This document shows, piece by piece, positions 26,144 through 39,625 of a stretch of 64,000 bases of DNA (the stretch's first letter is position 1; each line of letters opens with the position of its first letter). Both the position numbers and the translations under genes were made by a program. The stretch comes from Ekhidna sp. (GTDB lineage Bacteria; Bacteroidota; Bacteroidia; Cytophagales; Cyclobacteriaceae). Below the pieces are notes generated by a model. The model saw only the letters and a list, made by a program, of their open reading frames with translations, did no database searches and was not told where the DNA came from. The stretch lies in the NCBI GenBank assembly GCA_963691765.1, contig OY829375.1; one strand, written 5' to 3'.

Positions 26144-26162
26144 ATTTAGATAAATTCTAAAT
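26144..26162. promoter_or_regulatory. operator S1: ATTTAGATAAATTCTAAAT (imperfect copy of the 19-bp palindrome)
   Basis: It lies 11 nt upstream of the ATG at 26132. A perfect -7 box TACGTTTG (26169-26176, minus strand) ends 6 nt before it. Confidence 0.6.
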
Positions 26163-26203
26163 AGAGTACAAACGTAGCATTCAAACGTGAAGTATGCAAG
26201 CTT

Positions 26204-26222
26204 ATTTAGAATAATTCTAAAT
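26204..26222. promoter_or_regulatory. operator S2: ATTTAGAATAATTCTAAAT (perfect palindrome)
   Basis: Perfect 9-1-9 inverted repeat, 60 bp centre-to-centre from S1. Confidence 0.6.
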
Positions 26223-26250
26223 GAATGCTAAGGGCGATAAGCATTCATTT
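26219..26250 (-). terminator. hairpin after the TBDR/CxxCH operon
   Basis: AAATGAATGCT-(10 nt)-AGCATTCATTT forms a perfect 11-bp stem about 60 nt after the stop at 26312. The U-tract is poor and it overlaps S2. Confidence 0.45.
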
Positions 26251-26311
26251 CGCTTTGCACAAAAATTCATCTCAAAATGGAAAATTTCTCCCTTTAAAAA
26301 GGAATCCAATT

Positions 26312-26749
26312 CTAAAATTCTTGATTCCAAATAGTTGAATCATTTGGGATAGTGATCTTAATGAAATTATGCTTTGTCGTGTTATGGCATAGGTTGCACG
26401 AAGCGATCATAAGCTCATAGTTGTCCAAGAAAAGAACCTCATCCTTTTTTCGAATAGCCTCTTCTACTTTTTCGATTTTAGGCATAAGCATCGCCTCAGA
26501 AAGATTACTTAGGTTGTAATCATCGTGAATAACATTTCCTTCTATCAATTGCTCTGTAACCTCCTCCAACTCGTGTGTATAAAAGTCTGCAAGCTCCCAG
26601 TTTTCGTTCTTGCCGGCCAGCCAAAGTTTATGAGAAAATCGCTGATAGTATCCCATAGTTTCTAATACCGGATATTCTTCTACTTCTTTCTTTTCTGTGT
26701 TAGGGGCACAACCAAAAGCAATAAAAGTAAGCAATACGAAATATTTCAT
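26312..26749 (-). CDS. small lipoprotein with a single CxxCH heme-c motif
   Basis: 145 aa with lipobox FIAFGC and the motif ASCNLCHNTTKH. Its ATG overlaps the TBDR stop (TGATG). It is the last gene of the operon. Confidence 0.6.
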   Translation of the reverse strand: MKYFVLLTFIAFGCAPNTEKKEVEEYPVLETMGYYQRFSHKLWLAGKNENWELADFYTHELEEVTEQLIEGNVIHDDYNLSNLSEAMLMPKIEKVEEAIRKKDEVLFLDNYELMIASCNLCHNTTKHNFIKITIPNDSTIWNQEF

Positions 26750-29220
26750 CAGATCTTAATTTCAAGGGTTAAATAAAAGTTTCTTGGCTCTGAAGGTATT
26801 ATTCCAGGCCCTGGATAACCTGTAGCTCTGCGAGTGAAATAGCTTGTGTCAAGCAAATTATTTACTCCAGTTTCAATCTTGAATTGATTAAACTTATATG
26901 AAAGTGAAAAGTCCATGATCGAATAAGCAGGGATTTCTCCAATAATTCCATTTCGATTATCAGTATCAGCAGGGATAGCTGAGTTTTCCACATCGGTAAA
27001 TTGCTCGGATATGTAAGTAAATTGAAGGCTACCAAGTAGATTTTGGTATCCAAATCTTAAACCAGTTTTTAGGTTTATAGTTGGAATAAATTCAACCTTT
27101 TTCCCTTCAACATTATTTTCATCTGAATCTAGGTATGATGATTCTGTAATTGCAGAATTAACAAACCAATTTAGTTTATGCTTCGTAGTTGAAAGTGCCA
27201 GAGTTTTAGCCAAATTCCAATCAGCAAAAAATTCAACTCCAACTATCAGTGCTGTTCCTATATTTCCTCTAACTCTGTTGGCCCGATCATCTAGAATGAT
27301 CCCAATCCTATCATCATAAAAAAGTCCATATCCTCCAACATCATAGGAAATCAATTCTCCTAATTTTCCTCTAACTCCTAAATCAAATGTAAAACCCCGC
27401 TCATCCGAAATCTCCGGGTCAATGATGAAAGTAGGGCTTGTCACTCTGATATCGCTAAACGTAACTGAGCGATAGTTTTGTGAAAGATTTGAATAGATCT
27501 CAACGTTCTCGTTTGGCTCAAAGCTTGCCCCTATTCCTAAGAGGATAAATGAGCGCTCAAAAACACGATTATCAGTAGTATCACCAAGCGGTTGAACATT
27601 ACCAACCAAATCAACTCCTTCACGATTATAAATGCCAGCACTTTCAGTTCTAATATATTCGTACCTAAAGCCTGGTGTTATAGAGAGTCTATCATTAATA
27701 AATAGAATATTCTCTCCAAAAAATGCCAAGTTTCTGTTCGGAAATGTAAAGTCAGACTGATTTATATAATTAGGATTTTCATTGGTTGCTAAGCTAAAAT
27801 TTGCGTCTGTACCTCTGCTTCCAGGACCTTGTATACTGCTATTATTCGCATCGTAATATTTTGACCCCAATAGTAAAACCGCATCGCTACCCTTAAATCG
27901 ATATCGTGTTAGGTATCTTACCTCAGCTCCCCAATTCTCAAACTTCCCTTTGATTAAATCTCGTGAAAAGAAATAGCTACCGTCAGTATCTTGCTCATCC
28001 ACTTGGGTGATTGGATTAAGGTTCAGTTCCGTAGGATCTCCTCTAAATCCAACGGCATTTCTTCCAGCGTTCAGTGCAAAGAAGTTGATACTAAGATCAC
28101 TACGCTTTGATAATTTATGGTTAAGCTTCAATGAATAGAGTTTCCAATTCACTTCAAACCAATTTCGGGAACGATTACTAAAATTAGGATCTGCTCTGAA
28201 TTGAGTATCCGTTAAACCTCCTGGCTGTTGTGCTAAATAATTGAGTGAAGTAAACTCAAAATTGATTGAGGTTTTTTCTGTGAAATTGTAATTAAAACTT
28301 CCAAAGTAGTTGGTTGATTCGAATTCAGCATTTGGTCTAAATCCATCTCCCTTTTTGTAATTGATATAGGTGTAATAAGAAAATTTACCTACTGTACCAC
28401 TCAAAGAATTGAAGGTGTTAAATAAGCCAAATGAACCAATTGATTGTCTTGCTGTAAATGCTATGGGTTCTTGAGAAGGTTGCTTCATTTTAAAATTTAT
28501 TAGGCCTCCAAACTGAGTGCCGTATTGAAGCGAAGCTGCTCCTCTCACAACCTGTATTTGACTTAATGCATCCGCAGGAGGCGTATAATAACTTTCTGGA
28601 TAACCCAAGACATCAGCACTGATGTCGTATCCATTTTGTCTCGTATTAAAATTAGAAGTTCTATTGGGGTCGAGCCCCCTTCCTCCAATATTCAGCTGCA
28701 ATCCAGCATCAATACTTTCATAGATATTTAAACCCACAACCTGAGAATAAATCTGTCTTGCATTGTTAGTGGCTGCATTTCCAACCATTTGATCAAGAAG
28801 TACCACTTCTGTCTTTTTTCCCGCATAAATAGCAGTTCCCACAACCGGTTGTAAACGGGTTAGAGCAAAAATTTCTTCACGTTTCTGGCTTATTACCACT
28901 TCGGAAAGTTCTTGCTGAAATACCCTCATTGGAATAGTAATGTTCTTGTCTCCTGAAATATCCAGCTCTTCCTCCAATGTCTGATACTCTAATGAGAGTA
29001 TTACAATTTTATGCTTACCTTCCTTTAGGTTGTTTATCTCAAAGTATCCCTTTTCGTTTGTTGAAGTCAACTGACTGCTAGTTCTATCATAGACTTCGGC
29101 GTTAGTAATTGGCTGATTACTTTCCGAATCAACTATTGTCCCTGACAAGGTATACTGTGCCAATACCTGGCATGACAGCAGAAAGAATATTATCGCTATG
29201 CTAAATGCCTTTGATTTCAT
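26749..29220 (-). CDS. TonB-dependent receptor with N-terminal carboxypeptidase-regulatory-like domain
   Basis: 823 aa with a signal peptide, a CarbopepD_reg-like domain (YTLSGTIVDSESNQPITNAEVYD), a plug and a 22-strand-type barrel. It overlaps the HTTM gene end by 20 nt. Confidence 0.9.
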   Translation of the reverse strand: MKSKAFSIAIIFFLLSCQVLAQYTLSGTIVDSESNQPITNAEVYDRTSSQLTSTNEKGYFEINNLKEGKHKIVILSLEYQTLEEELDISGDKNITIPMRVFQQELSEVVISQKREEIFALTRLQPVVGTAIYAGKKTEVVLLDQMVGNAATNNARQIYSQVVGLNIYESIDAGLQLNIGGRGLDPNRTSNFNTRQNGYDISADVLGYPESYYTPPADALSQIQVVRGAASLQYGTQFGGLINFKMKQPSQEPIAFTARQSIGSFGLFNTFNSLSGTVGKFSYYTYINYKKGDGFRPNAEFESTNYFGSFNYNFTEKTSINFEFTSLNYLAQQPGGLTDTQFRADPNFSNRSRNWFEVNWKLYSLKLNHKLSKRSDLSINFFALNAGRNAVGFRGDPTELNLNPITQVDEQDTDGSYFFSRDLIKGKFENWGAEVRYLTRYRFKGSDAVLLLGSKYYDANNSSIQGPGSRGTDANFSLATNENPNYINQSDFTFPNRNLAFFGENILFINDRLSITPGFRYEYIRTESAGIYNREGVDLVGNVQPLGDTTDNRVFERSFILLGIGASFEPNENVEIYSNLSQNYRSVTFSDIRVTSPTFIIDPEISDERGFTFDLGVRGKLGELISYDVGGYGLFYDDRIGIILDDRANRVRGNIGTALIVGVEFFADWNLAKTLALSTTKHKLNWFVNSAITESSYLDSDENNVEGKKVEFIPTINLKTGLRFGYQNLLGSLQFTYISEQFTDVENSAIPADTDNRNGIIGEIPAYSIMDFSLSYKFNQFKIETGVNNLLDTSYFTRRATGYPGPGIIPSEPRNFYLTLEIKI

Positions 29221-30544
29221 CCTTGAATGGAAGTATCCAGTTTTTGTGATTGAATGATTCCTTGCATTTGGTTAGATCAACTGTTGGATCGATATATGGT
29301 TGACTTCTTCGCCCATTAAGCGCTACATAGCTTTCAACATATACCTCAACTTCTTTCCCTTGAGTTAAAAAATGATCGCGAAGATAATGAGCATATTCCA
29401 GAATAAAGTCAGGCTGAGTTGCCATCTGCTTCTCTTGAAAAGAGGTTAGGAAATCACTATTGTCGATATAGAATGTTTCGTTATTAGTTCGATCATAAAT
29501 CTTAAAATTGGCATAGCCCGCTTTTTCAATTAACATGACTCTCCAAGAAAATCTAAAGCCTTCTTCAGTCCAAAACAATTCTTCAGGATAGGCCAAGTAT
29601 CTCCATGGCATCAGGAGTTGAATTGTTAAGAATAAGCCCACCAATTTCAACTTCCATGCTGGAGTTGACACCAGGCTTACATCCGTTTTTGTATTCTTCA
29701 AGAAACCTTTGATTGGCTTTGAAATCACAGTTATAATCTTCTCATGTAGAGTTGGATCGAAAAAAATGAGAGCGCTAACGATCATGATATATGGAAACAT
29801 CCCTATTGGGAAAAGGACTCGTGTTAGCAAATGAAATATCACAACCAATACAAAAGCTACGGTTCGTGTTCGTTTCCAAAAAAGCAAAAGCGGAATCGTT
29901 AAATCATACAATGCACCTCCCCAACTAAATGCATAAATCAGCCATTCTTGGTGCAAGAAATTGCCTAACAATGGAACATCATATTTACCTGGAAGCCATA
30001 TTTTAAGGGGCATTGCCTCAATAAGCCAATCAGAATTAAGTTTTGCCAAGCCAGCATAGAAGTAAACGATTGCTAATAGAATTTTTATGCTATCAATACT
30101 CCAAGATGGAACTGTGATTGTGTGTGCGTGTCTTGAGTCCCATGAGCAATACCTTCCTGCAGGTAGAAAAATCATTAAAAAGCCGAGAATACTGATAAAA
30201 TAGTAGTGATTCAGATAAGTGGTTTTATCCATCAGCTCGATATAAGTAAAACTCAAAAAGAAAATGATGATGGATAATTGATATCTTAATCCGACAGCCA
30301 CTGCAAGTGCTGATAATCCACATATAATGAAAATCAGATAGGTGTAATTGCCTATTGGCTGAACCCATTCGAAACCGTAGTAGGAAAAAAAGAAATTTGG
30401 TTTAACATAAAGCTTATCAATCCATCCATTTGCCCAAAAACGGATAATGCTTATAAGCATCATTAAGCCAAATAAAATACGAAAGACTGCCAGTGGGGCA
30501 GCCTTAGTTGTTTTTAGAAAATATGGTGAATTGAGGAATACCAT
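29201..30544 (-). CDS. HTTM-domain polytopic membrane protein (vitamin-K-dependent gamma-carboxylase-like fold family)
   Basis: The track start is TTG at 30547, and the ATG at 30544 overlaps the imelysin stop (TGATG). The N-terminal block is LAVFRILFGLMMLISIIRFWANGWIDKLY with multiple TM helices. Assignment to HTTM is by pattern recognition only. Confidence 0.7.
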   Translation of the reverse strand: MVFLNSPYFLKTTKAAPLAVFRILFGLMMLISIIRFWANGWIDKLYVKPNFFFSYYGFEWVQPIGNYTYLIFIICGLSALAVAVGLRYQLSIIIFFLSFTYIELMDKTTYLNHYYFISILGFLMIFLPAGRYCSWDSRHAHTITVPSWSIDSIKILLAIVYFYAGLAKLNSDWLIEAMPLKIWLPGKYDVPLLGNFLHQEWLIYAFSWGGALYDLTIPLLLFWKRTRTVAFVLVVIFHLLTRVLFPIGMFPYIMIVSALIFFDPTLHEKIITVISKPIKGFLKNTKTDVSLVSTPAWKLKLVGLFLTIQLLMPWRYLAYPEELFWTEEGFRFSWRVMLIEKAGYANFKIYDRTNNETFYIDNSDFLTSFQEKQMATQPDFILEYAHYLRDHFLTQGKEVEVYVESYVALNGRRSQPYIDPTVDLTKCKESFNHKNWILPFKDEIKGI

Positions 30545-31668
30545 CAATCCCCATCTGCATCTACAAAGTCAACGCGAATATTTAGCGCCTGAAGCATATC
30601 AACTTTAAGATAGACGACATTTTTTTGAAGCTCATCATAGGTCTCTAACATGACAGTATTATCAGTATTTACCTGATCACTAAAATTCTCAGAAAGCGTT
30701 TCTGCTTTTGCTCTTGCTACTTCTAATTGTGCATTAATCAATTCTCCTAAATCTTCACCTTCACTCACCGTATTAAGAAAATCTAAATAGCTTTTAAAAC
30801 CTTCTCCTTCGACGGGAAGATTTGAATTTGGAGATTTTCCGTTAAAGAAATCCTTCATCGCATCTAGTCCTTCCATAAAGAGATCTTTGGACCTTCCGCT
30901 GTAAAGACCTTCGACTTTATCGGCTTGCTTATCGCTCGAAAATACGCCGGCTGGAATACCAATTTTTCCAGCTCTTAAGTGCTTTTCGTAGTAGAAAATA
31001 TAATCGTTAGTCAACTTGTTCACTGAAGCAGTAGCATCAGTTCCATTATTGTTAACGAATTCATCTCTATAACCATTATTCCAATCGTCAAGAACTGTCT
31101 GGGCTAAAGTTGCTAAGCGATCTGAAAGATCTGTTAGGTAAGTGGCGTAGGGCTTATTACCTGTCTCTTGAGAATATAAATCTATGATTGCTTGATCATC
31201 TGCTTCTATTCCATACAATAGATATTCAATAGCTGGAAATCCCTGCTCGTCTTGACGATTTACAGAGGTTAAATCATAACTACCTGACTCAATCGTAGCG
31301 ACCAAGTCAGTAGTGTTTGTAGGGTAAACATTTGTGAAATTGATTAAGGTAAGTTCTTCAGCTTTACCTATTTCAAAAAGTGCAACATGCTGCCACGCAA
31401 CATTTGCATCGTACCATGCATCACGTGCGTTATTAAGTGATTCTGTAGATGGATTCGTAGAAAAAGCATCAACTGCATCACCTAAATCTGTCAATTCAGA
31501 AACATACGTTTGATATCCTGGAACAATAATATTATCAGCCCAATTTACAAGCATAGCTCCTCTGTCGAAGTTATCCCCGGATTGGCCAGGATCATCATCC
31601 GAACAAGCAACTAATAGTGAACTCAGCACAATTGCCAGACCTAGTGATAATAATCGCATCTTCTTCAT
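30544..31668 (-). CDS. imelysin-family (peptidase M75-like) lipoprotein
   Basis: 374 aa with lipobox LLVACSDD. It is all-helical and acidic, and the block DAWYDANVAWQHVALFEIG is typical of imelysin/IrpA-like proteins. Confidence 0.7.
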   Translation of the reverse strand: MKKMRLLSLGLAIVLSSLLVACSDDDPGQSGDNFDRGAMLVNWADNIIVPGYQTYVSELTDLGDAVDAFSTNPSTESLNNARDAWYDANVAWQHVALFEIGKAEELTLINFTNVYPTNTTDLVATIESGSYDLTSVNRQDEQGFPAIEYLLYGIEADDQAIIDLYSQETGNKPYATYLTDLSDRLATLAQTVLDDWNNGYRDEFVNNNGTDATASVNKLTNDYIFYYEKHLRAGKIGIPAGVFSSDKQADKVEGLYSGRSKDLFMEGLDAMKDFFNGKSPNSNLPVEGEGFKSYLDFLNTVSEGEDLGELINAQLEVARAKAETLSENFSDQVNTDNTVMLETYDELQKNVVYLKVDMLQALNIRVDFVDADGD

Positions 31669-31689
31669 TTATTGTCCATTTAATATCAA

Positions 31690-31711
31690 AAGGGGATATC
31701 TCTATCCCCTT
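31690..31711 (-). terminator. intra-operon hairpin (attenuator) between DUF4856-like and imelysin genes
   Basis: AAGGGGATA-TCTC-TATCCCCTT forms a perfect 9-bp stem, followed on the minus strand by UUGAUAUU. Confidence 0.45.
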
Positions 31712-31727
31712 CAATGTTTTAATAATT

Positions 31728-32957
31728 TTAACTTCCAGCCTGAGCTACAGTGAATTCAAACTCAGCTGCAATCTCACTTGAAAGGTTATCCAATGTTGTT
31801 GTGGTCACATCCCACAGACCATTAGTTCCACCCATCAAGTCACTGATCATATTTTCAACTTCAGATCTTGTGAAGTAGGGAAGTTCACTATTCGGTCTCC
31901 TTGTAAACTGAAGACTGTAAATGAATCCATATCCTTCAGAAAGATCATGGAATACAGAAGCATAATCTATCGTATTGGATTCCAGTCCAGCCTTACCTTG
32001 TTGTAGATAATAAACAGCTCTTACTGCAATAACTGTCGATACTTTCTCTCTGATGATTTCAGCCTGAGCGTCTCTTGTTGTATAGTCTCTTGCCACAATT
32101 GCAGCTCTTCCTAGTTTGAATGCATTAAATAAATCATCAGCAATCCCTGCAAAATCATCATCGCCTTCAACTCTCCCAATGTATTTATTCAAGAAGCTAT
32201 CGTCATCTCCTATTGTTGGATTCGGATTGGCTGTATTTGCAGATGTACCATATGCATATCCGTATGCTTCATCCCACTTATGTTCCATGTTGGTATATGT
32301 CTTTCCATCAGCCACCGTACCAGCATCGTTGTCTTCAACATTGGTACCAGCATCTAGTACTGATGTGCTTACATAATTGTTCACGATTTGGTCAACCATT
32401 AATGCGCCAATCAACCCTTTGTTGAACGCTTGATTGTACTCCAGACCTTTCTCATTTACATATCTTGTAGATCCTCCACCTGCTTCTTGGATAAAACCAG
32501 CTTGACCAGCAGCAGCTTCAGTTTCCCATTCAGGGAATACATCTGCTACTTGTGCAGAAATCCACTCATCGAAATCTTCTTTAATTGCAGTGGCATCAGT
32601 AGTATTTGCAGAAAAGAAATCAGCAGATGCCGCAGTTTTACTTCTTACACTTTTATCAGAAGCATTTAATCCGAAGCCTGTTGCATCTTCAAAATCATTA
32701 GCACCTTCTACGTGCGCATACATTGCGTCAATTGTAGCCTCACCAAGGGTATTATCCTTAAGTGCGTCAATGACTTCCTCTCCCATAAGAATTCTAGTAG
32801 TTTGACCGCTGAAAGAAACGGTGGAAGAACCATCTCGTTCGAAAGCATAAGTCTCTGGCTCATTGATGGAAATGCTTCCACCGTCATCATCTCCACAGCT
32901 GACAAGAGATATTGATAGCCCAACAAATAGGGCAAGAAATAATTTGTTCTTATTCAT
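31728..32957 (-). CDS. DUF4856-like acidic lipoprotein
   Basis: The track start is TTG at 32975, which lies inside the -7 box. The ATG at 32957 gives MNKNKLFLALFVGLSISLVSCGDDDGG (lipobox). It occupies the position that, as I recall, DUF4856 proteins hold in imelysin/HTTM clusters. Confidence 0.65.
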   Translation of the reverse strand: MNKNKLFLALFVGLSISLVSCGDDDGGSISINEPETYAFERDGSSTVSFSGQTTRILMGEEVIDALKDNTLGEATIDAMYAHVEGANDFEDATGFGLNASDKSVRSKTAASADFFSANTTDATAIKEDFDEWISAQVADVFPEWETEAAAGQAGFIQEAGGGSTRYVNEKGLEYNQAFNKGLIGALMVDQIVNNYVSTSVLDAGTNVEDNDAGTVADGKTYTNMEHKWDEAYGYAYGTSANTANPNPTIGDDDSFLNKYIGRVEGDDDFAGIADDLFNAFKLGRAAIVARDYTTRDAQAEIIREKVSTVIAVRAVYYLQQGKAGLESNTIDYASVFHDLSEGYGFIYSLQFTRRPNSELPYFTRSEVENMISDLMGGTNGLWDVTTTTLDNLSSEIAAEFEFTVAQAGS

Positions 32958-32972
32958 GATTTTATGTGTTTG

Positions 32973-32980
32973 CAAAAATA
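32973..32980 (-). promoter_or_regulatory. -7 promoter box TATTTTTG for the DUF4856 operon
   Basis: Perfect match to the Bacteroidota TAnnTTTG consensus, 15 nt upstream of the ATG at 32957. Confidence 0.5.
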
Positions 32981-32994
32981 TGTTTTGATCTTCT

Positions 32995-33013
32995 GTTTAG
33001 AATGATTCTAAAC
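32995..33013. promoter_or_regulatory. operator S3: GTTTAGAATGATTCTAAAC (perfect palindrome)
   Basis: It lies 14 nt upstream of the -7 box at 32973-32980, in the -33 region. A second -7-like CAATTTTG (33018-33025) ends 4 nt before it. Confidence 0.6.
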
Positions 33014-33072
33014 AATGCAAAATTGAATCTGGAGAAGATTCTCTGCAATCGCCATCAATAGGGAATATTTTA

Positions 33073-33109
33073 TCACTAGTTATAGTGATGAGATCACTAT
33101 AACTAGTGA
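33073..33109. repeat. perfect 17-3-17 inverted repeat TCACTAGTTATAGTGAT-GAG-ATCACTATAACTAGTGA
   Basis: It starts 11 nt downstream of the stop at 33121 (minus strand) and has no clear U-tract. It could be a terminator, an RNA stabiliser or a protein-binding site. Confidence 0.7.
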
Positions 33110-33120
33110 GTGTGATTTCA

Positions 33121-34059
33121 CTACCTGCCAGAAGCAAGCTGGGTATCACCCTTTTCCGAGAGATGCATTTGAATGACTTTACGAATTTCAGTTTTAGAAG
33201 TAGACTCACTATAATTTTCTCCTTTCATCTGATCTCCGAGTTCGAATAACCTCATAAACATGATCTTGTCATCTACCTTCATATTTAGTGAAAGCTGTTT
33301 TTTACTAGCAAAGATTTCATCCCAAATACTTCTTACGTCCGCCCAATACTTATGATTTTCATTCCACCAAGCTACAGCAGTCGAACACTGAGAGTCTTCA
33401 ACTTTAGAATATGTATTCAAACCCTTTTCGCTTGCGAGTCTTCTATCAGATTCCTCTCTCATGACTTTTTGATTGTCTTGTTCGTGAATCCAGCCAAATT
33501 CAGTGATTTCGTGCCTGTTTTTACGAACCATCACATTATAGTCGCTTCGTTTACTAAATTCTCTTCTTGGAAGTGGAGCATCTGCTTGAGATTCCCAATA
33601 GTGCTTCCCATCATAATGGACCCATGTAGCACTTCCTTCATATCGGGGACTATCATCTACTTGAAATACTTTTTGAGTCCATTGACCTTTTACTTGATTC
33701 GCTGAAAGTTGCTTGTAATTCCATGTATTGTTTTTGTCATACAAGTACACGTCTTGATTCTCAAAGAGCCAATCTTGTCTCCAGTGTTTAATTATCATCG
33801 TATCTCCAATTACTAAGAGATGTTGTAATACAATCTTATCCTTTTCATTTATCACCGGGAAAATCCATTCCAACCCACCAGAATAGTAATTATCATGATA
33901 TTCATATGATTTTTCTTCCGCAAACGTCTCTGCGAAATTGAAAGAAATTTCATAGCAGCCGCACATCCCAAGAATTGATTCAATGTCTTGTTTTTTCTTT
34001 TTCTGTGCATGGCCTAAAAGTGCGATCAAGCACAATAGTGTTGTAATTATTTGTTTCAT
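33121..34059 (-). CDS. secreted hypothetical protein (~312 aa)
   Basis: The track start is TTG at 34068. The ATG at 34059 gives MKQIITTLLCLIALLGHAQ (signal peptide). It is Trp/Tyr-rich and I recognise no family. It is the third gene after TBDR and HmuY-like. Confidence 0.6.
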   Translation of the reverse strand: MKQIITTLLCLIALLGHAQKKKKQDIESILGMCGCYEISFNFAETFAEEKSYEYHDNYYSGGLEWIFPVINEKDKIVLQHLLVIGDTMIIKHWRQDWLFENQDVYLYDKNNTWNYKQLSANQVKGQWTQKVFQVDDSPRYEGSATWVHYDGKHYWESQADAPLPRREFSKRSDYNVMVRKNRHEITEFGWIHEQDNQKVMREESDRRLASEKGLNTYSKVEDSQCSTAVAWWNENHKYWADVRSIWDEIFASKKQLSLNMKVDDKIMFMRLFELGDQMKGENYSESTSKTEIRKVIQMHLSEKGDTQLASGR

Positions 34060-34071
34060 TGCTAACAAGGT

Positions 34072-35433
34072 TTAAAGAAGTTCGATTTTAAATTCTGGAT
34101 AACCTCGTTCTCCTGATTCTGAGGACAAACGAGTGAATTTTAGCTTGTAGTTATTTCCTTCAGCATCTTTGATGATATAGTATACATCTTCATTGAGGAC
34201 TAAGCTGAAGTTTACTAAGCTTCTCCAGGTAGATCCAATAACAGAAATGTCATCCTCGACAAGTGAATTACTAGTAATGTCATCCGCAGTAAACGCATCA
34301 TATGCTACCGTAGCTTCTTCTATCATAGCAGCGCTTACATTAGATCGATTAAGGATAACATAGTCATTGTATCCAATGGCTAGAAAAGCTCCAAAATTGG
34401 CAATTCCAGAATAGGTGCCATACATAATATCCCAAGACGTCTTCGATGGCTCAACAGAGACCACTCCATCGTCCAAGTCAAAATGAATGAAATTGTAAGA
34501 TTCGTCTTTTGATATTGTTACCTCGGAATGTGTAGTTGCATTTATATCGGCATATTGTAGCGTATAGTTATCACCATCCTGAACTACCCTAACTTTTTTC
34601 CAGTCACGGCCATCTCCGTCTCTTTTTATTATGTAAACAAGATTTTCACTGTTAGTCGCTGAGATATCAAAAGCAGTTTGACTAAGATCGCCACTCTGAT
34701 GATCGATCCACTCTGTAGCCTCTGTATCAACGTAATTTGAAATATACATTTTGGCTGAAAATCCGACCGTATCAGTTTCGGAAACGTCATCAATGTCTGT
34801 TTTGTCAATAGTTCTAGCCATTACATAGGCACTGCTATTCAATATGACATTATGAGATCCAGATTCCGTATTAAACCCAATATCCCAACTATACTTATCA
34901 ACCGTATGCTGAGTGAGTTTACTAAGATCTATAAATGCTTGATTTGGAAATTCAGAACCACCTCCATCGATCTCAATAATTCCTGATTGGGCAATAAAAT
35001 TCTCCGCTACTGTTATAGTAGCTGTCGTACTGGTTCCTAGTTCGAATTCATTTGACTCAATTACGGTTATTGTAATGGTCTCATCCTGAGCAATATTCAA
35101 TGAGGAACCAGCTGAAATAGTAAGATTGACTGATTCATCACCAGTCTCATATTCCATTATAATCTCGTTATTGATTATTTCTGGATCTGTATAGAAATCT
35201 GCCTCCGTTCCGTAATTCAATGAAGTAGCAATTCCTAAAATGAGCTGTCCTGAAGTTTCAGATGGCCTAGAAAAATTGATTGCTAACTCAACTGATTCAG
35301 AAAGACCCAAATCGGAATTTGCAAAATTTAAATTGATAGGAACTGTTGTCGTGTCATCATCCCCACAAGCAGTAAAAAGCATCATAATGCTTGCTACAGC
35401 CAAGTAGATTGATCCTTTGATTAGATTTTTCAT
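34072..35433 (-). CDS. HmuY-like lipoprotein with extra N-terminal domain
   Basis: 453 aa with lipobox MLFTACGDDD. It has repeated SWDIGF / SWDIMYG motifs resembling the WDLAF repeats of HmuY-family proteins. It sits directly after a TBDR (4-nt gap). Confidence 0.5.
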   Translation of the reverse strand: MKNLIKGSIYLAVASIMMLFTACGDDDTTTVPINLNFANSDLGLSESVELAINFSRPSETSGQLILGIATSLNYGTEADFYTDPEIINNEIIMEYETGDESVNLTISAGSSLNIAQDETITITVIESNEFELGTSTTATITVAENFIAQSGIIEIDGGGSEFPNQAFIDLSKLTQHTVDKYSWDIGFNTESGSHNVILNSSAYVMARTIDKTDIDDVSETDTVGFSAKMYISNYVDTEATEWIDHQSGDLSQTAFDISATNSENLVYIIKRDGDGRDWKKVRVVQDGDNYTLQYADINATTHSEVTISKDESYNFIHFDLDDGVVSVEPSKTSWDIMYGTYSGIANFGAFLAIGYNDYVILNRSNVSAAMIEEATVAYDAFTADDITSNSLVEDDISVIGSTWRSLVNFSLVLNEDVYYIIKDAEGNNYKLKFTRLSSESGERGYPEFKIELL

Positions 35434-35437
35434 TTGT

Positions 35438-37669
35438 CTATTTTTTGAATTGATAATTAATGGTTAGAAAATAGGAGCGCCCAAATCCAACCGGTATGTT
35501 GCTTCCAGCAGTATGTGGTCCTCCTGTCGATCCTGTAGCGTTTAGTGTTGTCACATTAAGTATGTTTCGAGCACCAATTCCAATGCGAATCGATTTGATA
35601 AATGTTTTGGAAAGATTTAGATCTAGTGTATGATAAGATTCCTGACTAGCCAACCTCGGTTCGCCTTCTACCAGGCTATATTGTCTGAATGATCCATTGA
35701 ACTTATAAAAGGCCGAAAGAGACAAATTAATAGATGACCATCTATAACTAGCTCTACTCATTATTTCAGGCGTGAATACATATTCTGGTACTCCTGTTTC
35801 ATCTCTAAGATTTTGCAATCTTCCGACGTAAGAGAATCCAACTGAATTTGTAAATCGACCTTGCTCATATGAAGCCTGAATGTTACCTCCGAGGGTGTTC
35901 ATTTTGGTGAGGTTAGTATAGGTTGTAGGCTCATTACCAATCGGCACAAGAATGGTTATCCCATTATTGATATTGTTATAGAAGGAGAGCAATTGAAAAC
36001 TAAGAGGAATGGAATTCAACTGATGAGAAATATTGAAAGTGAAGTTGTGAGAATCCTCAGGTTTTAGATCAGGATTGCCAATCAGATTATGATTGCTATC
36101 GACAAATTCATGGAATAATTCGCGGATGGATGGAGCTCTATATCCTCTACCATAGCTCCAACGCAAATTTGTATTGCCTCCAAGTTTATACGCAAAGTTG
36201 ACAGAAGCAGTAGGAATGCTTTCGAATAAACTGTTATATGAATACCTAATTCCTGGTCTGACTTTTAGGTCGTTAAAAATCAGCTCAGCCGATGCGAAAA
36301 TCGCCAGGTCGGTCAAGTGTTTATCTCCATCATTAAGTGTACTACCACCGGATGTTTCTCGAGTAGACTCAACACCAACCTGAAAGCTTCCAGACTTTTT
36401 AGAAATCAGATTAATTGTATTCCTGGAGAAAAAGGATCGGTAATAGATCGTGTCATTTCCTGATGTGATTGGAATTTCAACTCCCGATAACGGGAAATTT
36501 CTAAAATTTGATGAAAGTCGCTCATAATCTGTGTAGGAGAAAACACTATTGATCGTGGTGAAATCAGAGACTCTCCAAAGACTCTGAATTTGATGAAAAT
36601 ATCGATCAGCATTGTACTGTTCATCAAATTTATAAGGCTCCCCTCCATTAGCAGGAACTATTAAATCACCAAAATTTGTGATACGCTCATCAAGGATATC
36701 TAACCGATAATACAACTCCCATCTATCAGTTTCATATCTTGTGAGCCATCCTCCAAACCACTGTTCTTTAGGATGCCAATCAAACTCGCCAGGCTGATTA
36801 ATAAGGGCTTCGTTGATCCACCCACCAAATCGATAGTACCTTCCCGTCAATTGAGTAAACCATCGATCAGAAATTTTATACGAAGTATTTATTGATGGGC
36901 TATGAATTCCTTGATCAAAGAATGAATATTCACTTCCCGCGGTTTCTGTTTGAATATTAACTGATACTTCAAGCTGCGCGTCAATATCTTTCTTAGTTAT
37001 GATGTTAATTACACCTGCTAGTGCATCAGATCCATAGCTCACAGCCATTGGTCCTTGAACAATCTCGATTCGCTCTATGCTTTGAACATCAAATTGTGCA
37101 AGATCAATATCGTTGCGAACGCCACCCTTTCCCACAGCCGGGATTCCATCAATTAATACTTTAACATATTGTCCTCTTAGTCCCTGCAATGATATTTCTG
37201 ATCTACCTGTGGCGTTATCTCGATCTATTTTTACATTTAACTCATTGGATAAAATATCATGAAGTGAATTTGCATTTTGAGAAGCTATTCGATCGGAGGT
37301 AATGGTCTGCACTTTATAAACAGAGTTTCTCGCAGACTGTGGATTAAATTGACCAGTTACAACTATATCATCAAGATAAGTTGATGATGGTTTCATTATA
37401 ACAATTTGGCCTGATTTTGAAATGGTAGTTGTTAAGGTCTCGAATCCCAAAAAGCGTATTTCTACATCAAAAGGTATTTCTATTGCAGTCGAGAACTCCC
37501 CATTAATATCAGATACCAATTTATCTGTTGCACCATCACTGCCAGTCACAATTGCCGTAGCACCAACAAGTGATTCAAATGAATCACTAACCCTTACCTT
37601 GAAAGTGCTTTGGGCAACTGTGACAGCAGATATGCAAACGAATAGAAGGGAATAGATCTTTTTCATCAT
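35438..37669 (-). CDS. TonB-dependent receptor with N-terminal carboxypeptidase-regulatory-like domain
   Basis: 743 aa with signal peptide MMKKIYSLLFVCISAVTVAQ, a plug (DDIVVTGQ..., ISLQGLRGQYVKVLIDGIP) and a barrel. Confidence 0.9.
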   Translation of the reverse strand: MMKKIYSLLFVCISAVTVAQSTFKVRVSDSFESLVGATAIVTGSDGATDKLVSDINGEFSTAIEIPFDVEIRFLGFETLTTTISKSGQIVIMKPSSTYLDDIVVTGQFNPQSARNSVYKVQTITSDRIASQNANSLHDILSNELNVKIDRDNATGRSEISLQGLRGQYVKVLIDGIPAVGKGGVRNDIDLAQFDVQSIERIEIVQGPMAVSYGSDALAGVINIITKKDIDAQLEVSVNIQTETAGSEYSFFDQGIHSPSINTSYKISDRWFTQLTGRYYRFGGWINEALINQPGEFDWHPKEQWFGGWLTRYETDRWELYYRLDILDERITNFGDLIVPANGGEPYKFDEQYNADRYFHQIQSLWRVSDFTTINSVFSYTDYERLSSNFRNFPLSGVEIPITSGNDTIYYRSFFSRNTINLISKKSGSFQVGVESTRETSGGSTLNDGDKHLTDLAIFASAELIFNDLKVRPGIRYSYNSLFESIPTASVNFAYKLGGNTNLRWSYGRGYRAPSIRELFHEFVDSNHNLIGNPDLKPEDSHNFTFNISHQLNSIPLSFQLLSFYNNINNGITILVPIGNEPTTYTNLTKMNTLGGNIQASYEQGRFTNSVGFSYVGRLQNLRDETGVPEYVFTPEIMSRASYRWSSINLSLSAFYKFNGSFRQYSLVEGEPRLASQESYHTLDLNLSKTFIKSIRIGIGARNILNVTTLNATGSTGGPHTAGSNIPVGFGRSYFLTINYQFKK

Positions 37670-37670
37670 T

Positions 37671-37689
37671 ATTTAGAATGATTCTAAAC
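37671..37689. promoter_or_regulatory. operator S4: ATTTAGAATGATTCTAAAC
   Basis: It begins 2 nt upstream of the TBDR ATG (37669). A -7-like CAATTTTG (37694-37701) ends 4 nt before it. The 30 nt at 37672-37701 are identical to 32996-33025. Confidence 0.6.
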
Positions 37690-37843
37690 AATGCAAAATT
37701 GGATTCGAAAAGTATCCGCGTCAATCGCTAATGATGGTGAAAAATGAATCACTAGTAATGGCTAACTATTAGCTATTACTCGCTATTCAAAATGACTATA
37801 AATCGTGATTGAATTGCTGATCTAGAGTAGTCATATTTGTCTT

Positions 37844-37862
37844 ATTTAGAATCATTCTTAAT
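37844..37862. promoter_or_regulatory. operator S5: ATTTAGAATCATTCTTAAT (1 mismatch; extends to a 12-1-12 near-palindrome CTTATTTAGAAT-C-ATTCTTAATAAG)
   Basis: A -7-like CATATTTG (37832-37839, plus strand) ends 4 nt before it. It is upstream of the 108-aa ORF. Confidence 0.55.
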
Positions 37863-37949
37863 AAGATTTTAAGTCCTGTGCTTGATGGAACGTCTAAAAA
37901 ACAACTTTCTGATCAAGTGCAGGCACTATTTATATTAAATACAACATCG

Positions 37950-38276
37950 ATGTGTATAAAAAATGACCACATAGTACTAGCCCAGTCAGACATCGCCCAA
38001 ATAAGTTGGTGCAAAGGGTGCCGCAATTATTCGTTTATTTATAACAATTGCTGCTTTTCGTTTGATGATCGAGAATTATCCGTATTCATAAATATGCTCC
38101 GTCACCTAACCAAAAAAGACTATCATTTCGATTTTCTAGGAAAGCACTGCACAATTATTAAAAATCATAACGCACAAGTTGGCTTGTGCTTTACCGAAAC
38201 CGATACTCAAGAAATCTTAAACATCCTTGAAGAAGCTACTACTATGAAAGAAGTTTTCGGGATAATTTATAACTAA
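37950..38276 (+). CDS. hypothetical protein (108 aa) with CxxC-x9-CC motif, candidate paralog of 25631..25966
   Basis: The track start is GTG at 37878 and the first ATG is at 37950 (MCIKNDHIVLAQSDIAQISWCKGCRNYSFIYNNCCFSFDDREL...). Confidence 0.5.
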   Translation: MCIKNDHIVLAQSDIAQISWCKGCRNYSFIYNNCCFSFDDRELSVFINMLRHLTKKDYHFDFLGKHCTIIKNHNAQVGLCFTETDTQEILNILEEATTMKEVFGIIYN

Positions 38277-38283
38277 TACTACT

Positions 38284-38448
38284 ATGTCTTCACCTAACGA
38301 TTTCGACAACTTCTTTAACAATCTCATGCGAAAGATCGAGAAAAATCCATCCGAGCAATACCGAATAATCATGAGTGAGCTGCGCAATACATCTTGTCCA
38401 TACATAAGAAGGAAGATCAAAAATATCTATCTAGATCAAAATAATTGA
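38284..38448 (+). CDS. small hypothetical protein (54 aa), uncertain
   Basis: ATG ORF below the track cutoff, 8 nt after the previous stop: MSSPNDFDNFFNNLMRKIEKNPSEQYRIIMSELRNTSCPYIRRKIKNIYLDQNN. Confidence 0.3.
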   Translation: MSSPNDFDNFFNNLMRKIEKNPSEQYRIIMSELRNTSCPYIRRKIKNIYLDQNN

Positions 38449-38568
38449 CGAATACTTTCAAACTATCTATATAAAGAAACTTCAAGTGAGCCCCGAATCA
38501 GTGAAAGCACTAGTAGCTATTTTCGATGCTTTTGAGGTTATTTACAACTAAATCTTAAATCCTTAAAT

Positions 38569-38955
38569 ATGTCTCTCGATCAGCGAATTGATAAATCAGA
38601 AACCAGAATCTTCAAAGCGGTATTTCCAAACACTACCAATCACTACGATACATTATTTGGAGGTACCGCTATGCATGCGATGGATGAGGTAGCTTTTATA
38701 ACCGCCACACGTTTTAGCCGTCAGCGAATGGTTACTGTAAGCAGTAGCAAAATTGATTTTAAAAAACCGATACCAGCAGGAACAATCGTAGAGTTGATTG
38801 GACGAGTAACGCACGTTGGGAATACTAGCTTGAAAGTGTCCGTTCAGATCTACATCGAAGAAATGTATTCCGAAAAAAGAGAGCAGGCAATAGAAGGAGA
38901 ATTTTCGTTTGTCGCGATTGATGAAAATAGACAACCAACAGCAATTCCTAAGTAA
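38569..38955 (+). CDS. hotdog-fold acyl-CoA thioesterase (YciA-like)
   Basis: 128 aa with the block FPNTTNHYDTLFGGTAMHAMDEVAFITATRFSRQRMVTVSS typical of acyl-CoA thioesterases. Confidence 0.85.
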   Translation: MSLDQRIDKSETRIFKAVFPNTTNHYDTLFGGTAMHAMDEVAFITATRFSRQRMVTVSSSKIDFKKPIPAGTIVELIGRVTHVGNTSLKVSVQIYIEEMYSEKREQAIEGEFSFVAIDENRQPTAIPK

Positions 38956-38956
38956 G

Positions 38957-39589
38957 CTAGTTTCTTACCAATCCAGTTTCCAATGCATAAACGATAAGTT
39001 CTGCAGGAGAACTTAGGTTAAGTTTCTTCAAGATGTTCTTTCTGTGAGAATTAATGGTATGAACGCTAAGATGCAATTCATCTGCAATCTGAGCAGTGGT
39101 CATACCTTTTGTAATCAATTCCAAAACCTCGAATTCTCTTGAAGATAAGTTGGTAGGCTCGCAATCATCTTTTTCTTCAGGATTGTCCACCACCAAGTCT
39201 AAAATGTTGTTGCAAAAAAATCGATTGCCTTGCGCGACAGCTCTCAATCCACTTACAATTTCTTCTTCACTACAATTCTTGGTCAATATACCCTTTATGC
39301 CCATTGCAAGCATCTGCTGAATAGAATCTCTGGTTTGACTATTTGAAATCACAAGAAAGCTGGCTGTCAATGATTCTTTCAGCTCCCTAAGTTTTGGTAC
39401 TAGTTCACGATCCTTATCTGAAATATCAATTACAATCATTTGAGGATCGGTAGCAGAAGCTAATTCAACTAATTGTTCTGGTGAATCAATCACTTTGACC
39501 AGCTCAAAACCAGGCATAGCCTTTATTAGAGAAGAAATCCCTTGTCGAGTCAAATATTGAAAATCAGCTAAGAGAACTGAAGTGGCCAA
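38957..39589 (-). CDS. orphan NarL/FixJ (LuxR-type HTH) response regulator
   Basis: 210 aa with a TTG start (no in-frame ATG; a stop lies immediately upstream). The receiver has VLLADFQ (first acidic pair reduced to AD), IVIDIS (phospho-Asp position), FLVISNS and GILTK. The C-terminus is a GerE-type HTH (LSSREFEVLELITKGMTTAQIADELHLSVHTINSHRKNILKKL). No kinase gene is adjacent. Confidence 0.85.
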   Translation of the reverse strand: MATSVLLADFQYLTRQGISSLIKAMPGFELVKVIDSPEQLVELASATDPQMIVIDISDKDRELVPKLRELKESLTASFLVISNSQTRDSIQQMLAMGIKGILTKNCSEEEIVSGLRAVAQGNRFFCNNILDLVVDNPEEKDDCEPTNLSSREFEVLELITKGMTTAQIADELHLSVHTINSHRKNILKKLNLSSPAELIVYALETGLVRN

Positions 39590-39599
39590 TTAAGTATTT

Positions 39600-39625
39600 A
39601 TTTAGAATGATTCTAAACAAAGGTA
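39600..39625 (-). promoter_or_regulatory. operator S6 ATTTAGAATGATTCTAAAC (39600-39618) abutting a perfect -7 box TACCTTTG (39618-39625)
   Basis: The palindrome ends 10 nt upstream of the response-regulator TTG start. The -7 box overlaps its distal end by 1 nt. Confidence 0.6.

What the first reader, a model, noticed from the sequence alone, without database searches (positions are those of the whole stretch)
26144..39625. Six copies of a 19-bp palindrome (ATTTAGAAT-N-ATTCTAAAT) sit on promoters and define a local regulon
The sites are S1 26144-26162 (imperfect), S2 26204-26222 (perfect), S3 32995-33013 (perfect), S4 37671-37689, S5 37844-37862 (1 mismatch) and S6 39600-39618. All are intergenic and all lie just upstream of a gene start. 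In 5 of 6 sites a Bacteroidota -7 element ends 0-6 nt before the palindrome. It is perfect at S1 (TACGTTTG) and S6 (TACCTTTG), and near-consensus at S3/S4 (CAATTTTG) and S5 (CATATTTG). The palindrome therefore covers the predicted transcription start, which is classic repressor-operator geometry. The controlled units are the small-Cys-protein/111-aa(/ferritin) unit, the DUF4856-imelysin-HTTM-TBDR operon, the TBDR-HmuY-like operon, the 108-aa/54-aa unit and an orphan response regulator. I do not recognise this operator as a described one.
Basis: partly seen in the sequence, partly recalled or inferred. Interest (0 to 1): 0.8.

Follow-up and report, generated by a model that had tools for sequence, protein, structure and literature searches.

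The report
Bacteroidota Fur boxes on iron-uptake promoters
The six palindromes are real and are almost certainly binding sites for the iron-sensing repressor Fur in a marine Ekhidna bacterium; the same 19-bp sequence was already published as the Fur box of Riemerella anatipestifer, so this is ordinary iron regulation, not a new operator.

Summary
Six copies of ATTTAGAATNATTCTAAAT sit at the stated coordinates, against 0.16 expected by chance. All six are intergenic. Five lie 0-6 nt downstream of a Bacteroidota-type promoter (TTG, 20 nt, (T/C)AnnTTTG).

The window comes from Ekhidna sp. (Cytophagales). The motif is identical to the Fur box predicted for Riemerella anatipestifer (5'-ATTTAGAATTATTCTAAAT-3'). 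There, Fur binds box-carrying promoters in Mn2+-dependent gel shifts, and a fur deletion derepresses them. The derepressed genes include the same TBDR-HTTM-imelysin-hypothetical operon and hmuR/hmuY.

The core fits the Fur-family 7-1-7 consensus. The sites are conserved upstream of orthologous genes in 70 of 80 genomes from several Bacteroidota families. Among genes flanking perfect copies in metagenome contigs, Fur-family regulators are the commonest family.

Best explanation: Fe2+-Fur binds over the transcription start and represses haem and iron uptake genes when iron is plentiful.

Three points do not: the operator is a described one, the regulon is not merely local, and ferritin probably does not belong to it. 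No fur gene lies in the window, so the regulator is inferred. Interest is low.

The parts
26144..26162 (.). S1, the promoter-proximal Fur box of the 61-aa Cys-rich protein / 111-aa protein unit (2 mismatches to consensus)
   Evidence: It lies 6 nt downstream of TACGTTTG and 11 nt upstream of the ATG at 26132. The box is conserved in 11 Ekhidna-like loci.
26204..26222 (.). S2, the distal perfect Fur box, 60 bp from S1 and 4 nt upstream of the -33 TTG of the same promoter
   Evidence: The exact 60-bp S1-S2 spacing is kept in 11 of 11 related loci, including ones where the downstream protein is only 57% identical.
26169..26199 (-). Predicted core promoter of the small-protein unit: TTG (26199..26197), 20 nt, TACGTTTG (26176..26169)
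   Evidence: Read from the sequence. TA(C/G)GTTTG and AAGCTTG are conserved in the orthologous loci. No transcription start has been mapped.
25947..26132 (-). 61-aa Lys/Cys-rich protein carrying C-C-x10-C-x2-C (a FhuF-C-like [2Fe-2S] motif); first gene under S1/S2
   Evidence: it matches the C-terminal 42 positions of TIGR03950, siderophore ferric iron reductase (E = 5e-5, below the family cut-off). Homologues with upstream sites occur in Ekhidna and Aquimarina loci.
25631..25966 (-). 111-aa protein of unknown family, overlapping the 61-aa gene by 20 nt
   Evidence: Searches find no family. Synteny is conserved.
32995..33013 (.). S3, the Fur box of the DUF4856-imelysin-HTTM-TBDR-145-aa lipoprotein operon (26312-32957, minus strand)
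   Evidence: A site lies within 250 bp upstream of the DUF4856 gene in 70 of 80 genomes.
33018..33048 (-). Predicted promoter of the DUF4856 operon: TTG (33048..33046), 20 nt, CAATTTTG (33025..33018)
   Evidence: The GATTG ... TTTTGCATT blocks are conserved in 12 of 12 Ekhidna-like loci.
37671..37689 (.). S4, the Fur box of the TBDR-HmuY-like-DUF6607 operon (33121-37669, minus strand), 1 nt from the start codon
   Evidence: L004 shows the same geometry at a different TBDR.
37694..37724 (-). Predicted promoter of the TBDR-HmuY operon: TTG (37724..37722), 20 nt, CAATTTTG (37701..37694)
37844..37862 (.). S5, the Fur box of the DUF6686 (108/132 aa) and 54-aa unit on the plus strand
   Evidence: It is preceded by TTG (37809-37811), 20 nt, CATATTTG (37832-37839) and a 4-nt gap.
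39600..39618 (.). S6, the Fur box at the promoter of the orphan REC+GerE (NarL/LuxR-type) response regulator (38957-39589, minus strand). It shares the intergenic region with fumC.
   Evidence: TTG (39648..39646), 20 nt, TACCTTTG (39625..39618). The site is conserved in 11 of 11 related loci. It ends 2-12 nt before the regulator's start codon and its centre lies about 104-118 nt from the fumC ATG.

Best explanation
The six palindromes are Fur boxes, operators for the iron-responsive Fur repressor of this Ekhidna (Cytophagales, Bacteroidota) genome. When iron is sufficient, a Fe2+-loaded Fur dimer binds the 9-1-9 inverted repeat (7-1-7 core TTAGAAT-N-ATTCTAA). The repeat begins 0-6 nt downstream of the -7 promoter element, so it covers the transcription start and the first ~20 nt of the short leader. 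Bound Fur blocks RNA polymerase. When iron is scarce, Fur loses its metal and leaves the DNA. Five units are then derepressed: the DUF4856-imelysin-HTTM-TBDR operon, the TBDR-HmuY-DUF6607 haem operon, the FhuF-like mini-protein/111-aa unit, the DUF6686 unit and an orphan LuxR-type response regulator. The mini-protein promoter is clamped by two boxes exactly 60 bp apart, one over +1 and one just upstream of -33. Shown here: the sites, their statistics, promoter geometry, conservation and gene content. Taken from the literature: Fur binding to this sequence and Fur- and iron-dependent expression in R. anatipestifer. Inferred: that the Ekhidna Fur orthologue, which is not in the window, is the binding protein, and the positions of the transcription starts.
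For: 1. Identity to a published box. The motif matches the Riemerella anatipestifer Fur box 5'-ATTTAGAATTATTCTAAAT-3' (PMC5609570). In that study Fur gel-shifted box-carrying promoters. Its list of Fur- and iron-regulated genes includes a TBDR / vitamin-K gamma-carboxylase (HTTM) / imelysin / hypothetical cluster (RAYM_09779-09794) and hmuR/hmuY, the same gene kinds as here.
2. Stronger published genetics. rhuB, whose promoter carries ATTTAGAATTATCCTAAAT, rises more than 20-fold in a fur deletion. An iron chelator adds nothing further, and complementation restores repression. The gel shift is Mn2+-dependent with Kd 4.3 nM (PMC10986502).
3. Family consensus. The core fits the Fur-family consensus NTANAANNATTNTAN.
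4. Statistics. Six sites are found against 0.16 expected, and the PWM score gap is clear.
5. Promoter geometry. Five promoters show TTG, 20 nt, nAnnTTTG, then the box after 0-6 nt.
6. Conservation. 70 of 80 genomes have a site within 250 bp upstream of DUF4856 (Ekhidna, Aquimarina, Kordia, Tamlana, Flavivirga, Maribacter, Fulvivirga, Saprospiraceae and others). The S1/S2 pair and S6 are conserved in position in 11 of 11 Ekhidna-like loci, and an extra site sits beside feoA in two of them.
7. Intergenic location. 167 of 173 sites in 1.68 Mb lie outside ORFs of 100 aa or more, although 83% of that sequence is coding.
8. Independent context test. In an unselected scan of metagenome contigs, 120 of 121 perfect sites are not inside long ORFs. 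The commonest Pfam family among the 120 flanking ORFs is FUR (10), followed by rubrerythrin, TBDR, ferritin, DUF4856, SufBD and haem oxygenase.
Against: No Fur-family gene lies in the window or in the 80 related loci, so the regulator was not identified in this genome. The published R. anatipestifer evidence consists of gel shifts on whole promoter fragments, with no footprint and no box mutagenesis. In the 2017 RNA-seq table, iron regulation largely persisted in the fur mutant, which leaves room for a second regulator. By the Bacillus subtilis code the half-site TTAGAAT is closer to a PerR box (TTATAAT, 6/7) than to a Fur box (TGATAAT, 5/7). In metagenomes the identical 19-mer also sits beside PerR-like genes, rubrerythrin and katG in non-Bacteroidota contigs. 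The sequence alone therefore points to 'Fur family', not to 'Fur'. Transcription starts are predicted, not mapped.
Confidence: 0.83

Rival explanations
1. The boxes are bound by a different Fur-family paralogue (PerR-, Mur- or Irr-like, responding to peroxide, haem or another metal) and not by the iron-sensing Fur. The repression mechanism is the same but the signal differs.
For: The half-site resembles the B. subtilis PerR box more than the Fur box (own knowledge of Fuangthong & Helmann 2003; consensus quoted). In metagenome contigs, identical palindromes flank PerR-like genes, rubrerythrin, katG and hemA. In R. anatipestifer RA-YM, iron regulation persisted in the fur mutant in the RNA-seq table.
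Against: All target units in the window serve iron or haem acquisition, and no catalase, AhpC, Dps or rubrerythrin gene carries a site. In R. anatipestifer CH-1, deleting fur abolished the iron response of a box-carrying promoter, and Fur bound it at nanomolar affinity. The Fur-family genes found next to the box are all from contigs that do not look like Bacteroidota (GC 0.44-0.61, or a SAR11-like contig at 0.29).
Confidence: 0.1
2. The neighbouring orphan LuxR/NarL-type response regulator (38957-39589) is the protein that reads the palindrome. It would autoregulate at S6 and control a truly local regulon.
For: The regulator is encoded inside the cluster and has a site on its own promoter. GerE-type HTH dimers do bind ~20-bp inverted repeats (own knowledge). 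A regulator homologue again sits next to a perfect site in metagenome locus L188.
Against: The motif is conserved upstream of DUF4856 in many Flavobacteriaceae loci, and it is bound by Fur in R. anatipestifer. The sequence fits the Fur-family 7-1-7 consensus. Fur-family genes, not LuxR genes, are the enriched neighbours of perfect copies.
Confidence: 0.03
3. The palindrome acts as an RNA hairpin in the 5' leader, controlling translation or stability, or it is a dispersed REP/MITE-like repeat. Either way it would not be a protein operator on DNA.
For: If transcribed, the palindromes fold at -7 to -10 kcal/mol with z-scores of -2 to -4.9. Several would lie within 1-12 nt of the start codon.
Against: There is no Rfam match. 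Among sites that deviate from the consensus, 115 of 149 arm pairs are uncompensated, so base identity is conserved and pairing is not. S2 and the upstream boxes in Flavobacteriaceae lie upstream of -33, outside the leader. Flanking sequences are unrelated apart from promoter elements, and sites are almost never inside genes, which is unlike a mobile repeat.
Confidence: 0.03

Closest known systems
Riemerella anatipestifer Fur box (5'-ATTTAGAATTATTCTAAAT-3'; Guo et al. 2017, PMC5609570; Liu et al. 2024, PMC10986502)
   Same: It is the same 19-bp 9-1-9 palindrome; S2 differs only at the free central base. It lies within 100 bp of start codons in a Bacteroidota -33/-7 promoter context. The target gene kinds are the same: the TBDR-HTTM-imelysin-hypothetical operon, hmuR/hmuY and other TonB-dependent receptors.
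   Different: The class and order differ (Cytophagia/Cytophagales against Flavobacteriia/Flavobacteriales). Ekhidna sites often carry G/C at the outermost positions. Further targets seen here are a FhuF-like mini-protein with two boxes 60 bp apart, a DUF6686 protein and an orphan LuxR-type response regulator. There are no experimental data for Ekhidna.
Bacillus subtilis Fur-family 7-1-7 boxes (Fur TGATAAT-N-ATTATCA, PerR TTATAAT-N-ATTATAA, Zur TCGTAAT-N-ATTACGA; own knowledge of Baichoo & Helmann 2002 and Fuangthong & Helmann 2003)
   Same: The architecture is the same, T-x-x-x-AAT-N-ATT-x-x-x-A. A dimer binds over the core promoter and represses by occlusion.
   Different: The half-site here is TTAGAAT. 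The G at position 4 is unique to it, and the T at position 2 is the PerR-type base, not the Fur-type G. In Bacteroidota this variant is nonetheless used for iron-uptake genes.
Escherichia coli / proteobacterial Fur box GATAATGATAATCATTATC
   Same: It is a 19-bp 9-1-9 inverted repeat on promoters of iron-uptake genes, with Fe2+ as corepressor.
   Different: Only 4 of 9 half-site positions agree, so the box is not recognisable by eye. A Bacteroidota Fur homologue (P. gingivalis PgFur) does not bind the E. coli box (PMC6613475).

Membership tests
Fur box (Bacteroidota / R. anatipestifer type) | 19-bp 9-1-9 inverted repeat matching ATTTAGAATTATTCTAAAT | tested here: met
   The six sites have 0-2 mismatches at the 18 specified positions.
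Fur box (Bacteroidota / R. anatipestifer type) | Contains the Fur-family 7-1-7 core (NTANAANNATTNTAN) | tested here: met
   TTAGAAT-N-ATTCTAA fits every specified position of the consensus quoted. S1 and S5 each deviate in one arm.
Fur box (Bacteroidota / R. anatipestifer type) | Sits on promoters of iron or haem acquisition genes and overlaps core promoter elements or the transcription start | tested here: met
   Pfam searches give the gene content. TTG-20 nt-nAnnTTTG followed by the box after 0-6 nt is seen at five promoters. Transcription starts are predicted only.
Fur box (Bacteroidota / R. anatipestifer type) | Conserved upstream of orthologous genes in related genomes (phylogenetic footprint) | tested here: met
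   70 of 80 loci have a site upstream of DUF4856. S1/S2 and S6 are conserved in 11 of 11 Ekhidna-like loci.
Fur box (Bacteroidota / R. anatipestifer type) | Strongly biased to intergenic positions; neighbours enriched for metal-homeostasis and Fur-family genes | tested here: met
   167 of 173 sites lie outside ORFs. 120 of 121 perfect metagenome sites are not inside long ORFs. FUR is the top flanking Pfam family.
Fur box (Bacteroidota / R. anatipestifer type) | Bound by the organism's Fur protein in a metal-dependent way | not testable with these tools
   Published only for R. anatipestifer. It needs a gel shift or footprint with Ekhidna Fur.
Fur box (Bacteroidota / R. anatipestifer type) | A fur orthologue is present in the genome | not testable with these tools
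   None is found in the 64-kb window or in the 80 related loci. The rest of the 4.52-Mb genome could not be read.
Fur box (Bacteroidota / R. anatipestifer type) | Target genes are derepressed by iron limitation or loss of fur | not testable with these tools
   Published for the orthologous gene kinds in R. anatipestifer. No expression data exist for Ekhidna.
Dispersed repeat (REP / MITE) | Copies share extended flanks and are scattered without regard to promoters or genes | tested here: not met
   Similarity is limited to the 19-mer plus promoter elements. Sites are nearly always intergenic and promoter-proximal.
Structured cis-regulatory RNA | Match to a known RNA family, or pairing maintained by compensatory changes | tested here: not met
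   There is no Rfam hit at the sites. 115 of 149 deviating arm pairs are uncompensated. One caveat applies: the sites were selected by similarity to the consensus.

The most novel reading that the evidence does not exclude
In Cytophagales this box is read by a Bacteroidota-specific Fur-family protein with PerR-like DNA specificity. Its regulon would have an uncharacterised second tier. One part is the box-controlled orphan LuxR-type response regulator, which would relay iron or haem status to further genes. The other is the doubly boxed FhuF-C-like [2Fe-2S] mini-protein plus its 111-aa partner, which would form a new iron-starvation module linked to the DUF4856-imelysin-HTTM-TBDR uptake system.
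Probability: 0.12. Interest if true: 0.45.

Novelty: new member of a known kind. Interest (0 to 1): 0.2.

Why it matters
The practical value is for annotation. The result shows that the Fur box defined in one flavobacterial pathogen is shared across Bacteroidota classes: Cytophagales, Flavobacteriaceae, and one Saprospiraceae locus. It can therefore be used to map iron regulons in marine and environmental Bacteroidota, where iron homeostasis is still called largely unknown. It also assigns several families of unknown function to the iron-starvation response: DUF4856, DUF6607, DUF6686, a FhuF-like mini-protein, a 111-aa protein and an orphan response regulator. It reveals no new regulatory principle.

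Tried and rejected
1. I looked for the regulator locally. A regex for Fur metal motifs over all window ORFs and a phmmer search with E. coli Fur over the window plus 80 related loci found nothing.
2. I tested whether the 111-aa protein is a paralogue of the DUF6686 protein under S5. BLASTP gave E = 1.3, so this is not supported. Pfam and NCBIfam give no family for it.
3. I considered fumC as the target of S6. Its own -7 box (TAGATTTG, 39691-39698) is about 82 bp from the centre of S6, so S6 would sit near -94. Direct repression of fumC is unlikely but not excluded.
4. I considered ferritin as part of the S1/S2 unit and rejected it as unproven. There is a 49-nt gap, a separate -7-like box, and only a 4-mismatch site inside the upstream gene.
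5. I considered MliR, a MerR-like iron regulator of Bizionia, as the binding protein. It is an activator with no defined motif, and the site position downstream of -7 does not fit MerR-type action.
6. A low-GC metagenome contig (L107) with a Fur-family gene, then the box, then katG looked like a Bacteroidota PerR. Its sigma-70-type promoter and Irr/SAR11-like protein point to an alphaproteobacterium instead.
Full report
OBSERVATION

Dinucleotide-preserving shuffles predict 0.16 matches, and none of 100 shuffles reaches six. A PWM built from the six sites scores them 21.7-29.1 bits. The next best position in the 64 kb scores 15.6 bits and the one after that 13.2. All six sites are outside genes.

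- ferritin (25054-25581)
- a DUF4856-imelysin-HTTM/VKGC-TBDR operon, with a 145-aa lipoprotein as its last gene (26312-32957, minus strand)
- a TBDR-HmuY-DUF6607 operon (33121-37669, minus strand)
- a DUF6686 protein followed by a 54-aa ORF (plus strand)
- a REC+GerE response regulator (38957-39589, minus strand), divergent from fumC

PROMOTER GEOMETRY

Reading each site in the direction of its gene, five promoters share one layout. A TTG is followed by exactly 20 nt, then (T/C)AnnTTTG, then the palindrome after 0-6 nt.

| Site | -7 element | Gap to palindrome |
|---|---|---|
| S1 | TACGTTTG | 6 nt |
| S3 | CAATTTTG | 4 nt |
| S4 | CAATTTTG | 4 nt |
| S5 | CATATTTG | 4 nt |
| S6 | TACCTTTG | overlaps by 1 nt |

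This is the -33/-7 promoter type of Bacteroidota, as cited in PMC5609570. The palindrome would therefore cover the transcription start and most of a very short leader. S4 ends 1 nt from the TBDR start codon. In orthologous loci S6 ends 2-12 nt from the response regulator's start. S2 has no -7 box of its own. It lies 4 nt upstream of the -33 TTG of the S1 promoter, so that promoter is bracketed by two boxes 60 bp apart. The transcription starts themselves are inferred.

ORGANISM

The DUF4856 protein is 100% identical to an NCBI protein of Ekhidna sp. on a 4.52-Mb contig. Ekhidna belongs to Cytophagales, family Reichenbachiellaceae.

WHAT THE MOTIF IS

A full-text search for the half-site found Guo et al. 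2017 (PMC5609570). It reports gel shifts of Fur with four box-carrying promoters. Its table of Fur- and iron-regulated genes lists hmuY/hmuR and the cluster RAYM_09779-09794 (TonB-dependent receptor, vitamin-K gamma-carboxylase [HTTM], imelysin, hypothetical protein). These are the same gene kinds as two of the units here.

A later study of strain CH-1 (PMC10986502) gives stronger evidence. rhuB, whose promoter carries ATTTAGAATTATCCTAAAT, rises more than 20-fold in a fur deletion. It is not induced further by an iron chelator in that mutant, and complementation restores repression. Its 194-bp promoter is shifted by Fur only in the presence of Mn2+, with Kd 4.3 nM.

The core TTAGAAT-N-ATTCTAA also fits the Fur-family 7-1-7 consensus NTANAANNATTNTAN (quoted). 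The operator is therefore a described one. It is hard to recognise because only 4 of 9 half-site positions match the E. coli Fur box.

INDEPENDENT TESTS RUN HERE

1. Phylogenetic footprinting. An alignment of DUF4856 proteins retrieved 80 loci from 80 genomes. They include Ekhidna, Cyclobacteriaceae and Roseivirgaceae MAGs, Fulvivirga, Aquimarina, Kordia, Tamlana, Algibacter, Flavivirga, Maribacter, Croceitalea and a Saprospiraceae MAG.
   - In 70 of 80 loci a site with at most 3 mismatches lies within 250 bp upstream of the DUF4856 gene. In Flavobacteriaceae it is often a pair about 70 bp apart.
   - In the 11 Ekhidna-like loci that carry the S1/S2 unit, the pair is kept with exactly 60-bp spacing upstream of the mini-protein gene.
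   - In those same 11 loci S6 is kept between the response regulator and fumC.
   - Two of these loci add a third site next to a feoA-like gene.
   - The -33 and -7 blocks are conserved with the sites.

2. Location bias. In the window plus these loci (1.68 Mb, 83% coding by a crude ORF map), 167 of 173 sites are not inside ORFs of 100 aa or more. All 71 sites with 2 or fewer mismatches are intergenic.

3. Unselected context. A metagenome scan for the perfect 19-mer gave 121 sites on 120 contigs, and only one lies inside a long ORF. Among the 120 flanking ORFs the commonest Pfam family is FUR (10 members). Rubrerythrin (5), TBDR (4), ferritin (4), cytochromes c, DUF4856, catalase-peroxidase, HemA and SufBD follow, and a haem oxygenase is also present. 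A Fur-family gene is a rare gene, so this enrichment ties the sequence to Fur-family regulators (autoregulation) independently of the literature.

CAVEAT ON THE REGULATOR

The Fur-family genes found next to the box come from contigs that do not look like Bacteroidota. Most have GC 0.44-0.61 and PerR-like neighbours such as hemA. One SAR11-like contig has GC 0.29, with an Irr/PerR-like gene followed by the box and katG. By the Bacillus subtilis code the half-site is also one step closer to a PerR box than to a Fur box (own knowledge).

So the 19-mer is a Fur-family operator used by different paralogues in different phyla. The assignment to the iron sensor Fur in Ekhidna rests on two things: the exclusively iron and haem acquisition gene content of the targets, and the R. 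anatipestifer genetics. No Fur-family gene is present in the window or in the 80 loci, and the rest of the genome could not be read. In the 2017 RNA-seq table, iron regulation persisted in the fur mutant. The 2024 data contradict this for rhuB, but some room for a second regulator remains. I put Fur at about 0.83 and another Fur-family paralogue at about 0.10.

OTHER RIVALS

- The neighbouring LuxR-type response regulator as the binding protein is unlikely. The motif is conserved where Fur is the known binder, and Fur-family genes, not LuxR genes, are the enriched neighbours.
- An RNA-hairpin role is possible in principle, since the palindromes fold at -7 to -10 kcal/mol. However, there is no Rfam match, and 115 of 149 deviating arm pairs are uncompensated. 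S2 and the upstream flavobacterial boxes also lie outside any leader.
- A REP/MITE origin is excluded by the unrelated flanks and the promoter bias.

- Ferritin is probably not co-regulated through S1/S2. It is separated by 49 nt and has its own -7-like box (AACTTTTG) overlapping the upstream stop codon. Its only nearby site is a 4-mismatch one (25703-25721) inside the 111-aa gene. The orthologous position carries a better site in two MAG loci, so a distal Fur site for ferritin cannot be ruled out.
- S6 is placed for the response regulator. The -7 box of fumC (TAGATTTG, 39691-39698) is about 82 bp away.
- The 'small Cys protein' has the C-C-x10-C-x2-C spacing of the FhuF [2Fe-2S] site. It matches the C-terminal end of TIGR03950, siderophore ferric iron reductase, with E = 5e-5, below the family cut-off. 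Shorter homologues (KKKCCKKYKKKGKxNCKRCPKL) sit at the same place after the TBDR operon in Aquimarina, again with sites upstream.

VERDICT

The element is the Bacteroidota form of the Fur box, already published for R. anatipestifer, and the mechanism is textbook Fur repression. What is new is modest. The box extends to Cytophagales with conserved promoter architecture. One promoter carries a fixed 60-bp double box. Several families of unknown function, and an orphan response regulator, are assigned to the iron-starvation response. Novelty: new member of a known kind. Interest: about 0.2.

Noticed in passing
window 25947-26132 (-); homologues in L001-L074: The 61-aa Lys/Cys-rich protein has the FhuF-type [2Fe-2S] spacing C-C-x10-C-x2-C and weakly matches the C-terminus of TIGR03950, siderophore ferric iron reductase (E = 5e-5). 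A 32-70-aa version (..KKKCCKKYKKKGKxNCKRCPKL) follows the same TBDR operon in Aquimarina, also with Fur-box-like sites upstream. It looks like an unannotated, Fur-controlled mini-protein family.
   Followed up: partly
window 26144-26222; L001-L032: The two boxes S1 and S2 are exactly 60 bp apart, start to start, in all 11 related loci, including those with only 57% protein identity downstream. In Flavobacteriaceae the paired boxes upstream of DUF4856 are about 63-73 bp apart. This suggests a constrained two-dimer architecture bracketing the promoter.
   Followed up: partly
window 25703-25721 (inside the 111-aa gene, encoding QFRELLN): A weak Fur-box-like site (GTTTAGAAGCTCTCTAAAT, 15.6 bits) lies about 130 nt upstream of the ferritin ATG. 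The orthologous position in L006 and L012 has a site with 3 or fewer mismatches, 95-98 nt upstream of ferritin. It could be a distal Fur site for ferritin or a by-product of the coding sequence.
   Followed up: partly
window 26312-26749 (-): The 145-aa lipoprotein that ends the DUF4856-imelysin-HTTM-TBDR operon has a CNLCH (CxxCH haem c) motif and no Pfam or NCBIfam family. It may be a small c-type cytochrome linked to this iron-uptake system.
   Followed up: no
window 33064-33100 and 37741-37775: There are two long, near-perfect hairpins that both begin with ATCACTAGT. One lies just after the DUF6607 stop and is probably a terminator without a T-tract. The other lies in the middle of the S4/S5 divergent promoter region, where a terminator makes no sense.
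   Followed up: no
window 32970-32981 (-), downstream of S3: A second perfect -7-like box (TATTTTTG) lies 14 nt downstream of S3 and about 18 nt before the DUF4856 ATG. It is conserved in most Ekhidna loci. If it is a second promoter, S3 would cover its -33 region instead of its +1.
   Followed up: partly
window 38957-39589 (-) and 39716-41119 (+): The Fur-boxed orphan response regulator has ADF in place of the usual acidic DD pair near its N-terminus (VLLADFQ). It is always divergent from fumC in Ekhidna-like genomes. A homologue next to a perfect box and a TBDR occurs in metagenome locus L188. It may form a second regulatory tier of the iron response.
   Followed up: partly
metagenome loci L084, L118, L130, L156, L158, L181: Six low-GC contigs carry the perfect palindrome directly overlapping the ATG of a conserved 61-64-aa basic protein (MKKGFGFAGSLSYI...KKEKRNLEF) of unknown origin. 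It may be a phage or mobile-element gene using the same operator.
   Followed up: no
window 20353-20437 and 20562-20634 (-): Two tRNA genes are the only Rfam matches in the window.
   Followed up: no
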